Assembly (NCBI GenBank): GCA_038087875.1
Contig: CM075987.1
Location: 23,252,001 to 23,316,000 of the forward strand
Length of the DNA: 64,000 nucleotides
Source: Malacoraja senta
Taxonomy: Eukaryota
Reading direction: 5' to 3'
Part shown: positions 34,401 to 37,400 of the stretch, piece after piece
Layout: the number at the start of each line of letters is the position of its first letter
Numbering within the stretch: position 1 is the first letter of the stretch
The notes under the pieces: generated by a model
Database searches by the model: none
Told to the model about the DNA's origin: nothing
What the model saw: only the letters and a program-made list of their open reading frames with translations
Translations under genes and position numbers: made by a program

Positions 34401-37400
34401 CTATTTGATTGGGTGCGGGCGGTGGTTGGAGGTGGAAGGCAAGATACGAAACCACCAGCTGGCAACATCAGTGTCCGCATCCACCTGGGAACTGGGTCAT
34501 CCTTTGTTCAGGTCATCTCTCACTTACCAGCGAGCCTGGGGGACCAGGAGGCCCTTCACTGCCCTTCAGACCGATCTGACCCTGTGGACAGAGAAAAAGT
34601 AACCGTCAGTGTCGGAAGGAACTGCAGATGCTGGTTTACACCGAAGATAGACACAAAATGCTGGAGTAACTCAGCTTCTCTGGAGAAAAGGAATAGGTGA
34701 CATTTCGGGTCGAGACCCTTCTTCAGACTGAGAATAGGTGACGTTTCGGGTCGAGACCCTTCTTCAGACTGAGAATAGGTGGCGTTTCGGGTCGAGACCC
34801 TTCTTCAGACTGAGAATAGGTGACGTTTCGGGTCGAGAACCATCTTCAGACTGAGCTATAGTCTGCTTAGTATGAAGAATGGTCTCAACCCAAAACATCA
34901 CCTATTCCTATTCTCCAAGCAGCAGTCAGTGTTGGTTTGGCATCACATGTGTAGTCTACCTTGGATACTGGGCTTGTTTGGTGAGCCTGCTTCGACACAG
35001 TCCATTCTGCTGCCACCAACACACAGTAAACACAGGAGAGTTGCCCAGACTCTTGACACCAGGCTATATTTATGTTTTAGTTCAGGTTAGAGATACGGGG
35101 CTGAAACAGGCCCGTCAGCCCACCAGGTCCGCGCCGACCAGCGATCCCCGTGCAGTAGCACCATCTTACACACTAGGGACAATTTACAATCTTTATTTGA
35201 AGCAATTAACCTACAAGCCTGTACGTCTTTGGAGTGTGGGGGGGAAACCAGAGCACCCGGAGAAAACCCACACAGGTCACAGGGAGAACGTACAAACTCC
35301 GCTTATAAAGCACCCGTAGTCAGGATCGAACCCGTGTCTCGGGAGCTGTAAGTCAGCAGCTCTACCAATGTGCCATCGTGCTGCCCACGTTGGGCCTTTG
35401 CAGAGTGAGGTTTAATCAGACCTGTATTGTACCTGTTTGGGGAATGTAGGGTGGGACAAGGCAAGAAGGAGATCTCTGCCTCAATTGACGCAGTGCGTAG
35501 TTTGTGACGGTACGCTCAGTACAACATACCGATCGCTACCTCCTAAACCGACACCTCGAAAAAGGTGAACGTCATGACTTTGTTTTTCAGCCACGTGACA
35601 GGTATGTTTATTAAAGGTGAGCACCGGCAACTCCTCCTCAATAAAAATAGCCTTGAATTGCAGTATGCAATGACCTCCCTACCATCGAGGGGATCTACCG
35701 CAGTCGCTGCCTCAAAAAGGCTGGCAGCATCATCAAGGACCCACACCATCCTGGCCACACACCCATCTCCCCGCTACCTTCAGGTAGAAGGTACAGGAGC
35801 CTGAAGACTGCAACGTCCAGGTTCAGAAATAGCTACTTCCCCACAGCCATCAGGCTATGAAACTCAACTGAAACAAATCTCTGAACACTAATAGACCATT
35901 ATCTGTTTATTTGCACTTTATCTGCTTATCTAATGATGTGTGTATATATTTATATAATGGTATACGGACTCACTGATATATGTTCTGTATTCGTGCCTAC
36001 TATATTCTGTGTTGATGCAAAGCAAGAATTTCATTGTCCTATCTGGGACATATGACAATAAACTCTCTTGACTTGAGTTGACTTGCAGTTATACTTTTGC
36101 TACTGACTTTGGCAGCTGAATGACACACATCCATGATGTTTCACCATTACGTCACAGCACCAAAACATCTCTTGGGATTTGCACAGTTGAGAACAAGGTC
36201 CAAGAAGGTGTACTTACAAGGGGTCCCGGAAGTCCACGCTCTCCGGTGAATCCTCTGAGACCCGGTGGACCATCCTTCCCGGAAGGACCGGCTGGACCAG
36301 GATCACCCTGAACACACACAGCAAAGAAGATGCTACTCAGGCCACGTGCAAAACCAACAGAGAGTTAACGTTGAACAAGAGAACTCAATGACTGGAGATG
36401 TAAACCCAACAATGCGCTGTGAAGAATGGTCTTACCCCTTTGGAAGTTTGGTCAGAAGGTGGCGGGGTTACAGCCCAGTCCAGAGTTGGAGACAAGAGTA
36501 TGAAAGAGTGTTACGTGTGACAGTTTGGAGGGAGTCCACTTGACTTGAGACACAGCCCCGATGGAGTTCTGCACTGACCCAGAGGTTGGACTACATTATT
36601 GGAGTGAGTCTAGTGCAGGGCATATGCTCGCCTGTCGTAGGGGCGGTACTGAGGGAGTGCCGCACTGTCAGAGGGGCAGTACAGAGGGAGCAGGTATTCA
36701 CGGTTGTAGGATCTCAAACAATCAAACAAAAGATTACATTTAAGACATTTATATTTGAGAGCATATGGTTTATTTCGAAGATTTGTAAGTTTATGAAATT
36801 TTACTTCTGGCTTCAGGGGGTGAGATAGAGGCATCAACGTTCAGCAACAGATTGGACGGAAGTAAAGGAAGAGGTGGAAGGTTTACAGCAGGGATCCCCA
36901 ACATTTTTCGTCCCGTTTACCCCGGGCAACTTTAATAGTACATAGCAATGTTATTTCACTTATTAATGAACAACTATTGACGAACAGATACCGGTCGGTA
37001 TACCAGAACCAAACACAGTCAGTCAATGAGAACAAATATGTACAAATCCAGAATCAACAAATTTACCCCCCTGGGTAGGGGAAATTTACCCCCTGGGGGA
37101 TACATTGACCCCAGGTTGGGAACCCTTGGTTTACAGGAAGACATCAGTAAATGTAACTAGAATGACTCATTCAATGGTCAAAGCTATGAAAACAGGTGGA
37201 AACAAGGCCTGGTGACCTTGAAGCACTATGGAGAAGGCAATGGAGGTCGGGCCACGGACCATGATGGGATCAAAATGGAAGGAGTGGAATTTTAAATTTG
37301 TGATCGCCTGCCATTTAGTTTAGTTTACTTTAGAGAGACAGCGCGGAAACAGGCTCCCTCAGCCCACCGAGTCCACACCGACCAGGGATCCCCACACATT

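What the first reader, a model, noticed from the sequence alone, without database searches (positions are those of the whole stretch)
34691..34854. Four-copy tandem hammerhead-motif array on the collagen sense strand, ~110 nt upstream of a splice acceptor
Seen: four 41-bp units. Unit 2 (34732-34772) reads on the minus strand CUGAAGA-A-GGGU(CUCG)ACCC-GAAAC-GUC: the full hammerhead core, a 4-bp stem II and a GUC cleavage triplet. Unit 1 has GAAAUGUC, unit 3 has a GCC triplet and unit 4 has a weakened stem II. Known: Penelope-like elements carry minimal type-I hammerheads whose loop-less palindromic stem III (ACGU) favours dimeric folding, and an extra A after A9 is tolerated in some natural hammerheads. 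Inference: tandem amplification of just the ribozyme unit could supply a dimer partner in cis. That could cut the collagen pre-mRNA inside this intron or release very short RNAs, like a nascent retrozyme or satellite. Stem I looks very short (~2 bp), so activity is uncertain.
Basis: partly seen in the sequence, partly recalled or inferred. Interest (0 to 1): 0.72.

Follow-up and report, generated by a model that had tools for sequence, protein, structure and literature searches.

The report
Penelope retroelement hammerhead repeat in intron
The four-fold repeat of a small hammerhead-ribozyme motif in this collagen intron is the reiterated head of a broken Penelope-like jumping gene, a known kind of element that litters this genome, and it is most likely an inert by-product of insertion rather than a working RNA cutter.

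Summary
There are four 41-bp units at 34691-34854, on the sense (minus) strand of a fibrillar collagen gene, 110 nt upstream of a 54-nt Gly-X-Y exon. The motif is the minimal hammerhead (min-HHR) of a Penelope-like element (PLE). It has 18,728 exact copies in the genome, and a sister variant has 19,101. Copies with long open frames carry it in both flanking repeats of an RT + GIY-YIG ORF. The array lies inside a 312-bp insertion with 8-bp target-site duplications and an inverted partner arm. Such micro-arrays (period 38-44) recur at about 70 loci. In all 20 examined they sit at the 5' extremity of the insertion. This points to reverse-transcriptase template switching at the RNA 5' end, followed by slippage, not to selection for a ribozyme dimer. 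Only unit 2 keeps an intact motif. Helix I is 2 bp. Predicted folding buries the units in a long hairpin. Family 5' ends do not pile up at the cleavage site. Published PLE min-HHRs cleave poorly. Verdict: a new member of a known kind, modest interest, function in collagen pre-mRNA unsupported but untested.

The parts
34605..34612 (.). Left copy of the 8-bp target-site duplication GTCAGTGT
   Evidence: Read; the identical octamer is at 34925-34932, directly outside the PLE-derived sequence.
34613..34690 (-). PLE tail downstream of the hammerhead units (3' part of the insertion on the minus strand), with an internal deletion of about 17 nt near 34675
   Evidence: blastn to family references covers 34609-34730 at 83% identity. 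Loose ends at 34675 in four runs show the sequence that most family copies have there (table 7).
34691..34854 (-). Four tandem 41-nt units, each holding a ~4-nt leader (UCAGU), the min-HHR core and the first 8 nt after the predicted cleavage site
   Evidence: TRF; cores at 34699-34726, 34740-34767, 34781-34808 and 34822-34849. Only 34740-34767 passes my min-HHR descriptor.
34855..34869 (.). 15-nt spacer at the head-to-head junction
   Evidence: Read; it forms the hairpin tip in the predicted fold.
34870..34924 (+). Inverted, 5'-truncated and decayed partner arm: a fifth, degenerate hammerhead unit plus about 22 nt of tail, on the opposite strand
   Evidence: Read. It pairs with the 3'-most unit in the MFE fold, and this hairpin explains the sub-threshold miRNA-precursor hits in Rfam.
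34925..34932 (.). Right copy of the target-site duplication GTCAGTGT
   Evidence: Read.
34528..34581 (-). 54-nt collagen Gly-X-Y exon whose acceptor lies 110 nt downstream of the array on the sense strand
   Evidence: Translation [18 protein letters not shown]; cag| and |gtaagt flanks.

Best explanation
The array is the reiterated 5'-terminal segment of a short, old Penelope-like-element (PLE) retrocopy. The retrocopy inserted in sense orientation into a collagen intron (insertion 34613-34924, 8-bp target-site duplication). Each 41-nt unit is the first ~40 nt of the PLE leader RNA: a ~4-nt leader, the PLE minimal hammerhead (min-HHR), and 8 nt beyond its predicted cleavage site. Most likely (inferred) the PLE reverse transcriptase, on reaching the 5' end of its template, switched back to a site just 3' of the hammerhead. 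It re-copied that segment and also made the inverted arm. The founding duplication was then expanded to four units by slippage or unequal exchange, and the units have since decayed. In the collagen pre-mRNA the element probably does nothing catalytic and folds into a long hairpin. Shown: the repeat, the PLE identity, the target-site duplications, the recurrence of such arrays and their 5'-terminal position. Inferred: the template-switch origin and the lack of cleavage.
For: PLE identity:
- The 28-mer has 18,728 exact genomic copies. A variant differing at 3 hammerhead-compatible positions (loop, U-A to U-G, C17 to U17) has 19,101.
- Six long copies have an upstream ORF ending in a GIY-YIG domain (E 1.8e-6, above the cut-off) and a weak RVT_1 match (26.1 bits, below the 29.6 cut-off).
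- L057 and L058 have 1247- and 1224-aa open frames, with the motif about 120 nt after the stop and 163 nt before the ATG, in partial tandem.
- Copy 3' ends fall into two classes about 35 nt apart, matching the published 30-40-bp PLE 'tail' (PMC11167929, PMC8557442).

The motif is more than chance:
- My descriptor finds 5 hits in the window, all in PLE tails, and 0 in 200 shuffles.

Origin of the array:
- There are 96 exact tandem junctions, at about 72 loci by my count of that list.
- I chose 20 of these loci. None has PLE 3'-UTR sequence upstream, against 9 of 20 random single copies (Fisher p = 0.0012). Upstream, 9 have an inverted arm and 11 have other sequence.
- Exact target-site duplications of 8-13 bp abut the first unit in 4 of those 11.
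- An internal tail segment with 36,361 copies has only 12 such junctions, a rate about 15 times lower.
- Other messy 5' reiterations inside target-site duplications occur in the window at 13633-13916 and 15939-16308.

Inertness:
- Only 1 of 4 units is intact, and helix I is 2 bp.
- Stem II probability is at most 0.003 in the array alone and at most 0.15 with flanks.
- The insertion folds at -126.2 kcal/mol, z = -8.7, with the inverted arm paired to the 3'-most unit.
- None of 62 unselected family hits starts at the predicted cleavage site, while 19 start at the core's 5' edge.
- All 5 intact motifs, and 13 of 16 single PLE tails in this collagen gene, are in sense orientation. That is hard to reconcile with efficient self-cleavage.
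- In the literature, min-HHR dimers and trimers cleave weakly (PMC4209133). The Anolis PLE hammerhead needs its protein and is dispensable for insertion in vitro (PMC11167929).
Against: - Within every array of three or more units (7 of 7, including this one), the junction register is the same. Independent template switches would not produce this, so a second process is needed (slippage, unequal exchange or rolling-circle copying). I cannot say when the expansion happened.
- 5'-terminal position and 'contains the hammerhead' coincide, so the 15-fold enrichment does not separate a 5'-end effect from a hammerhead-specific one.
- The 20 array loci were picked by me from the list, not at random. 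Target-site duplications were computationally clear in only 4 of 11.
- The folding results are equilibrium predictions. They ignore co-transcriptional folding and proteins.
- PLE copies with long open frames exist in this genome, so the protein-assisted cleavage reported for the Anolis element cannot be excluded.
- No RNA data could be examined.
Confidence: 0.7

Rival explanations
1. Functional cis-dimer ribozyme. Tandem units pair through their ACGU segments to form double hammerheads. These would cut the collagen pre-mRNA in this intron or release ~41-nt RNAs.
For: The motif has every conserved core nucleotide and the palindromic ACGU that PLE min-HHRs are thought to use for dimerisation. 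Axolotl hammerheads cleave much better as dimers (PMC7229834 passages). PLE ORFs with long open frames exist, and the Anolis PLE hammerhead is protein-assisted.
Against: Three of four units are mutated at 15.2, 16.1 or stem II, so no two adjacent units are both intact. Helix I is 2 bp. Stem II occupancy is predicted at or below 0.3% in the array. A cis double hammerhead with a 13-nt linker is a strained pseudoknot (my reasoning). Such arrays arise at insertion 5' ends everywhere in the genome. Sense-strand motifs are enriched, not depleted, in this gene. Published min-HHR dimers and trimers are barely active (PMC4209133).
Confidence: 0.06
2. Purely post-insertional replication slippage of a single-unit copy, promoted by the palindromic hairpin tip, with no role for reverse transcription.
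For: Junction registers are identical within arrays, as in minisatellite expansion. The region is part of a strong inverted repeat.
Against: Arrays are absent from copies with PLE sequence upstream: 0 of 20 against 9 of 20. Every unit carries the ~4-nt leader of the RNA 5' end, and the unit boundary coincides with the start of the insertion next to the target-site duplication. Internal tail segments reiterate about 15 times less often.
Confidence: 0.2
3. Miniature retrozyme. A ~41-nt RNA is released by two hammerhead cuts, circularised, and copied by rolling-circle reverse transcription, giving arrays with one identical junction.
For: Junctions within arrays are identical, including apparently untemplated nucleotides, for example in L033. 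Non-LTR retrozymes are proposed PLE derivatives, with family consensus lengths down to 51 bp (bioRxiv 10.64898/2026.07.22.740005, Results read).
Against: The junction is not at the cleavage site, so a founding duplication is still needed. The unit is shorter than any reported retrozyme. The hammerhead is weak. No family 5' ends fall at the cleavage site. Arrays are short, 2-5 units in the 20 loci.
Confidence: 0.04
4. The inverted arm plus array act as a hairpin precursor of small RNAs (mirtron-like or endo-siRNA) from the collagen intron.
For: There are sub-threshold matches to plant miRNA precursor models: MIR9672 at 33.9 bits against a gathering score of 74, E = 1.8e-4. The predicted hairpin is long.
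Against: The Rfam hits are far below gathering scores and simply reflect any long hairpin. Such inverted PLE pairs are common in the sequences examined. No small-RNA data are available.
Confidence: 0.04
5. Chance resemblance: the repeat is not hammerhead-derived at all.
For: No Rfam hammerhead model matches the array or an intact flanking repeat, even at E up to 10. Helix I is almost absent.
Against: The motif sits where PLE hammerheads are described, in the flanking repeats of an RT + GIY-YIG ORF. It shows four published features that were not part of the original search descriptor (PMC4209133). The two abundant master variants differ only at hammerhead-permissive positions. The motif gives 0 hits in 200 shuffles.
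Confidence: 0.03

Closest known systems
Minimal hammerhead motifs (min-HHR) of metazoan Penelope-like elements (Cervera & de la Pena 2014, PMC4209133; parts 1-2 of 4 read)
   Same: CUGANGA and GAAA boxes. No helix III, with palindromic 15.2-16.2 (ACGU). An unpaired nucleotide between A9 and G10.1. A G10.1-C11.1 pair. Location in the flanking repeats of a PLE. Thousands of dispersed, mostly solitary copies, and pairs on opposite strands.
   Different: Helix I is only 2 bp here, whereas 4-5 bp is typical (a 2-bp helix I is reported for D. virilis). Copy number is far higher than the 4,000-9,000 called remarkable in that paper. Short arrays of 38-44-nt period are not described in the parts I read.
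Poseidon PLE of Anolis carolinensis (PAc) and its hammerhead (Frangieh et al. 2024, PMC11167929; main text read)
   Same: The hammerhead lies at the junction between flanking repeat and ORF, a little upstream of the internal reverse-transcription start sites. Two start sites give a 30-40-bp optional tail. Here two classes of copy 3' ends lie about 35 nt apart, roughly 95 and 130 nt after the motif.
   Different: In PAc the ORF starts inside the hammerhead. Here the ATG is 163 nt downstream of the core start (L057, L058). The linker before GIY-YIG carries a C-x-C-x2-C-x2-C motif, which suggests the Neptune clade (inferred from passages of PMC8557442; not tested by phylogeny).
Non-LTR retrozymes of animals (Cervera & de la Pena 2020, PMC7229834, passages; Li et al. 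2026 preprint 10.64898/2026.07.22.740005, abstract and Results part 1)
   Same: Tandem head-to-tail units, each with a type-I hammerhead, evolutionarily tied to PLE flanking repeats.
   Different: Retrozyme units are 150-450 bp (consensus lengths 51-972 bp in the preprint), with canonical, active hammerheads and abundant circular RNAs. Here the unit is 41 bp, essentially the ribozyme alone, in arrays of 2-5 units at insertion 5' ends, with no RNA evidence.
Complex tandem/inverted PLE insertions (Craig et al. 2021, PMC8557442, passages)
   Same: 5' truncation, an inverted 5'-truncated copy adjacent to the direct copy, partial tandems, and an optional tail.
   Different: Described tandems are element-scale (pseudo-LTRs). 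The 38-44-nt reiteration of the extreme 5' end is a finer-scale form that I did not find described.

Membership tests
PLE minimal hammerhead (min-HHR) | Catalytic boxes CUGANGA and GAAA in type-I order | tested here: met
   All four units carry CUGAAGA and GAAA.
PLE minimal hammerhead (min-HHR) | Helix II of at least 4 bp closed by G10.1-C11.1, with one unpaired nucleotide between A9 and G10.1 | tested here: met
   GGGU/ACCC with an extra A in units 1-3. Unit 4 has U10.3 opposite C11.3.
PLE minimal hammerhead (min-HHR) | No helix III; palindromic 15.2-16.2, U16.1 and H17 | tested here: inconclusive
   Units 2 and 4 have ACGUC. Unit 1 has AUGUC, which is not palindromic. Unit 3 has ACGCC, so U16.1 is lost. 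It is met by the family consensus.
PLE minimal hammerhead (min-HHR) | Helix I of about 4-5 bp | tested here: not met
   Only U-A and G-C can pair between UCAGU and ACCUAUUC (read). A 2-bp helix I is reported for D. virilis PLE hammerheads (PMC4209133).
PLE minimal hammerhead (min-HHR) | Located in the flanking repeats (pLTR) of an element encoding RT plus GIY-YIG | tested here: met
   L057 and L058 have cores on both sides of 1247- and 1224-aa open frames. GIY-YIG scores E 1.8e-6. RVT_1 scores 26.1 bits, below the cut-off.
PLE minimal hammerhead (min-HHR) | Self-cleavage after H17 | not testable with these tools
   No raw RNA reads were available. Indirectly, 0 of 62 family hits start at the predicted site.
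Canonical type-I hammerhead (Rfam RF00163) | Covariance-model score at or above the gathering threshold | tested here: not met
   No hammerhead family is listed at E up to 10 for 34300-35300 or for an intact flanking repeat. The genome-wide RF00163 search found nothing, but only 73 of 242,271 candidates were scored and the controls did not ring.
Non-LTR retrozyme | Tandem units of about 150-450 bp with an active canonical hammerhead, expressed as linear and circular RNA | tested here: not met
   The unit is 41 bp and the hammerhead is not canonical. Expression is not testable.
Penelope-like element insertion | 5' truncation, adjacent inverted truncated copy, target-site duplication, optional 30-40-bp tail | tested here: met
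   The window locus has a direct copy, an inverted arm and an 8-bp target-site duplication. Family 3' ends form two classes about 35 nt apart. Inverted arms were seen at 9 of 20 array loci and 4 of 20 single loci.

The most novel reading that the evidence does not exclude
The 38-44-nt micro-arrays are not mere debris but the smallest retrozyme-like replicons. With help from PLE protein, adjacent min-HHRs would cut as dimers. The ~40-nt product would be circularised and copied by rolling-circle reverse transcription. This would explain why every array keeps one identical junction. Sense-strand arrays such as this one could then nick host pre-mRNAs in cells where the PLE protein is expressed.
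Probability: 0.05. Interest if true: 0.75.

Novelty: new member of a known kind. Interest (0 to 1): 0.3.

Why it matters
It shows that a striking 'tandem ribozyme in a collagen intron' is ordinary retroelement debris, so it should not be pursued as a host RNA-processing device without RNA evidence. There is a modest positive side. This genome holds at least 37,829 exact min-HHR copies of two master variants, and PLE copies with long open frames. It also holds about 70 micro-arrays that mark the exact 5' end of the PLE leader RNA. That makes it a good natural data set for three open questions about PLEs: how their reverse transcriptase handles the template 5' end, how tandem and inverted structures form, and whether the hammerhead does anything.

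Tried and rejected
- **Rfam, local.** cmscan on the locus at E up to 10 and on an intact flanking repeat gave no hammerhead family. The only hits were sub-threshold miRNA-like matches explained by the hairpin.
- **Rfam, genome-wide.** The RF00163 search found nothing, but only 73 of 242,271 candidates were scored and the control genomes did not ring, so it is uninformative.
- **Sequencing runs.** No RNA holder was listed.
- **Laying four runs.** All were short-read contigs that break at the repeat, and none spans the array. Copy number, RNA ends and expression could therefore not be checked.
- **Spliced form.** The polypyrimidine-CAG just upstream of the core in long copies suggested a 3' splice site, as in D. 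virilis Penelope. I searched for one hypothetical spliced junction. There were 0 exact matches and 21 heterogeneous one-mismatch matches, so that donor is rejected. Other donors were not tried.
- **Earlier scan notes.** Nothing on this genome, and nothing that bears on this locus. One search did not complete.
- **Paper searches.** The search with fish-group words returned only zoology papers. The search for PLE plus template switching or jumping listed no paper on short 5' reiterations in PLEs. This is not proof that none exists, and supplements of the 2014 and 2021 papers were not read.
- **Exact target-site duplications.** At the 11 array loci without an inverted arm, they were clear in 4, absent or imperfect in 6, and in one (L035) the match was to element sequence.
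Full report
**1. The observation**

Tandem Repeats Finder reports an array at 34691-34855 with period 41, 4.0 copies and 95% matches. On the minus strand each unit reads UCAGU-CUGAAGA-A-GGGU(CUCG)ACCC-GAAACGUC-ACCUAUUC.

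The four cores lie at 34699-34726, 34740-34767, 34781-34808 and 34822-34849.
- unit 1 has GAAAUGUC;
- unit 2 is the consensus;
- unit 3 has GCC;
- unit 4 has a U for the extra A and a stem II mismatch.

The minus strand is the sense strand of a fibrillar-type collagen gene. A 54-nt exon at 34528-34581 translates to [18 protein letters not shown] and is flanked by cag| and |gtaagt. Nine further Gly-X-Y exons on the same strand span 9716-56780. The array therefore ends 110 nt upstream of the acceptor.

**2. The unit is an interspersed repeat, not a local invention**

The 28-mer core has 15 matches with up to 3 mismatches in the window, 14 of them on the minus strand, against 0 in 100 shuffles. 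It has 18,728 exact copies in the 1.94-Gb assembly. A variant differing at three positions has 19,101 exact copies. The three differences are a loop C to U, a U-A to U-G change in stem II, and C17 to U17. All three are tolerated by a hammerhead.

Twenty random exact copies show a conserved module. It starts a few nucleotides before CUGAAGA and runs about 95 or 130 nt beyond it.

Six of those copies continue upstream into an ORF ending ...[15 protein letters not shown]...LIFRLGSL...FSNFR*.
- One of five translated fragments matches Pfam GIY-YIG (E 1.8e-6, 28.6 bits, cut-off 22.6).
- One matches RVT_1 weakly (26.1 bits, below the 29.6 cut-off).
- Three match nothing.

A search with a 187-aa RT fragment scored 150 of 22,066 candidates, all strongly, some lying in open frames of up to 1247 aa. 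Two such copies (L057, L058) show the full architecture. A partial upstream copy is followed by the core, about 135 nt, 40 nt more to the ATG, an ORF of about 1230 aa ending in GIY-YIG, 120 nt, the core again, and a tail cut at about +95.

This is a canonical endonuclease-bearing Penelope-like element with pseudo-LTRs, and the motif sits in them. The linker before GIY-YIG carries C-x-C-x2-C-x2-C. That suggests the Neptune clade, inferred from passages of PMC8557442 and not tested by phylogeny.

**3. Is it a hammerhead?**

Rfam's hammerhead models do not match the array or an intact pseudo-LTR, even at E up to 10. A genome-wide RF00163 search was uninformative.

Cervera and de la Pena (PMC4209133; I read parts 1-2 of 4) defined a minimal hammerhead for PLEs precisely because canonical descriptors miss it. 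They list four features that emerged beyond their descriptor:
- a G10.1-C11.1 pair;
- palindromic 15.2-16.2 with no helix III;
- families with compensatory variation.

The consensus unit here has the first three. The two master variants differ only at permissive positions. A descriptor I wrote from those features finds five motifs in the window, all in PLE tails on the minus strand, and none in 200 dinucleotide shuffles.

Helix I is only 2 bp. This fails the typical 4-5 bp, though the same paper reports 2 bp for D. virilis. I therefore file the motif as a PLE min-HHR, with helix I as the one feature not met and cleavage untested.

**4. Anatomy of the locus**

The octamer GTCAGTGT occurs at 34605-34612 and again at 34925-34932, directly outside the PLE-derived sequence (read). 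The insertion is 34613-34924. Read on the minus strand it consists of:
- an inverted, 5'-truncated, CpG-decayed arm (34924-34870), which carries a fifth, degenerate unit on the other strand;
- a 15-nt spacer;
- the four units;
- the tail, with an internal deletion of about 17 nt near 34675.

Loose ends in four runs show the sequence that most family copies have at that deletion. A direct copy with an adjacent inverted truncated copy is the arrangement described for PLEs (passages of PMC8557442).

**5. The array is one of many, and they mark insertion 5' ends**

A gapped pattern for two adjacent cores finds 96 exact junctions with periods of 38-44. By my count of that list they lie at about 72 loci, on many chromosomes and with at least a dozen different junction sequences.

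I fetched 20 of these loci, chosen by me for different junctions and not at random.
- In 0 of 20 is there PLE 3'-UTR sequence upstream of the first unit, against 9 of 20 random single copies (Fisher p = 0.0012).
- Upstream there is an inverted arm in 9 and other sequence in 11.
- In 4 of those 11, an exact 8-13-bp target-site duplication lies 2-5 nt from the first core, and these are rare in controls. The rest are imperfect or absent, and one match was to element sequence.

Every unit, the first included, carries the same ~4-nt leader (cagu-like).

Among 62 unselected family hits, 19 begin at the 5' edge of the core, 6 extend upstream, and none begins at the predicted cleavage site.

As a control, an internal tail segment with 36,361 exact copies has only 12 comparable tandem junctions, a rate about 15 times lower.

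The window holds two further insertions with messier 5' reiterations inside target-site duplications (13633-13916 and 15939-16308). One has an 80-nt unit that includes non-PLE filler and a truncated core.

**6. How the array most likely arose (inference)**

Frangieh et al. (PMC11167929; main text read) showed that an Anolis PLE reverse transcriptase starts at two internal sites just downstream of the hammerhead region. This gives the optional 30-40-bp tail. Here, family 3' ends fall into two classes about 35 nt apart.

A transcript whose 5' end lies 4-5 nt before the core would yield retrocopies of about 125-165 nt that start with the hammerhead. That is the commonest form seen.

I infer the following sequence of events. 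On reaching this 5' end, the enzyme sometimes switches back to a site 7-15 nt past the hammerhead and re-copies the first ~40 nt. At other times it snaps back and makes the inverted arm.

Within every array of three or more units the junction register is identical (7 of 7, including this one). The later units therefore probably come from slippage or unequal exchange of a founding duplication. Rolling-circle copying is not excluded. Unit-specific substitutions in this array show that the expansion predates much of its decay.

**7. Does it do anything in the collagen pre-mRNA?**

Nothing found here says so.
- Only unit 2 is intact, and no two adjacent units are both intact.
- The predicted probability of stem II is at most 0.003 for each unit in the array alone. 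With flanks it is at most 0.15. For unit 2 in isolation it is 0.62.
- Neighbouring near-palindromic stem II segments pair with each other, so tandem copies hinder the hammerhead fold in these predictions rather than help it.
- The whole insertion folds at -126.2 kcal/mol (z = -8.7), with the inverted arm paired to the 3'-most unit.
- All five intact motifs in the window are on the collagen sense strand. By my classification of the hits, 13 of 16 single PLE tails are too (binomial p = 0.021). That bias would be odd for an efficient self-cleaver in a highly expressed gene.
- Published min-HHR dimers and trimers cleave weakly (PMC4209133).
- The Anolis hammerhead is inactive without its protein, is dispensable for insertion in vitro, and left no RNA-seq ends at its cut site (PMC11167929).

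These are indirect arguments. No RNA data could be examined, and PLE copies with long open frames exist here, so protein-assisted cleavage is not excluded.

**8. Comparison and verdict**

The closest known thing is the PLE min-HHR, and the locus is a typical compound PLE insertion.

It is not a non-LTR retrozyme as defined so far. Those have units of 150-450 bp, canonical active hammerheads and abundant circular RNA (PMC7229834 passages). A 2026 preprint gives family consensus lengths of 51-972 bp.

I did not find the following described:
- the 38-44-nt reiteration of the extreme 5' end at about 70 loci;
- the very high motif count, at least 37,829 exact copies of two variants, against the 4,000-9,000 called remarkable in 2014.

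This rests on the searches, the parts of PMC4209133 and PMC11167929 that I read, and passages of PMC8557442. Supplements were not seen.

The finding is a correct catch of a known kind of motif. Its proposed function is unsupported. Interest is modest.

Noticed in passing
window 15939-16308 (minus strand): A compound PLE insertion bounded by a 12-bp target-site duplication (catattgacctg). It has an inverted arm, then two 80-nt tandem units that each hold a core lacking the CUGA box plus about 45 nt of non-PLE filler, then the tail. This shows that 5'-end reiteration is not tied to an intact hammerhead.
   Followed up: partly
window 13633-13916 (minus strand): Another PLE insertion with a target-site duplication (ataaaatagc), an inverted arm and several partial reiterations of the 20-30 nt around the hairpin tip.
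   Followed up: partly
window 5047-60381 (whole collagen gene stretch): By my classification of the hits, single PLE tails are 13 on the sense (minus) strand against 3 on the plus strand (binomial p = 0.021). All 5 intact min-HHR motifs are on the sense strand. The antisense orientation would place donor-like AG|GU sites from the tail's complement in the pre-mRNA, which could explain the bias. That explanation was not tested.
   Followed up: partly
L057:1818-5558 and L058:1856-5527 (genome stretches on contig C1): PLE copies with 1247- and 1224-aa open frames flanked by pseudo-LTRs. 150 of 22,066 RT candidates were scored, all strongly. The family may still be active in this genome.
   Followed up: partly
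L002, L006, L012, L013, L015, L057 and L058, just upstream of the core: In long copies the core is preceded by an ~80-nt polypyrimidine tract ending in CAG, which resembles a 3' splice site. Many short copies start 0-5 nt after it. In D. virilis Penelope an intron ends at helix I (PMC4209133). One hypothetical spliced junction had 0 exact genomic matches.
   Followed up: partly
window 32895-33260: A 34-bp / 103-bp tandem repeat of about 10.7 copies (score 476-535) in the neighbouring intron, unrelated to the PLE tail.
   Followed up: no
window 35100-35300: Another very high-copy interspersed repeat downstream of the insertion. Summed contig word-depths reach 10^5-10^7 in all four runs laid. 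It was not identified.
   Followed up: no
window 34606-34945 in runs X1-X3 and X16: Runs labelled as three different organisms (A, B, C) hold the PLE-tail words at enormous depth, while the unique flanks are covered only in organism A. The family is therefore shared by related species.
   Followed up: no
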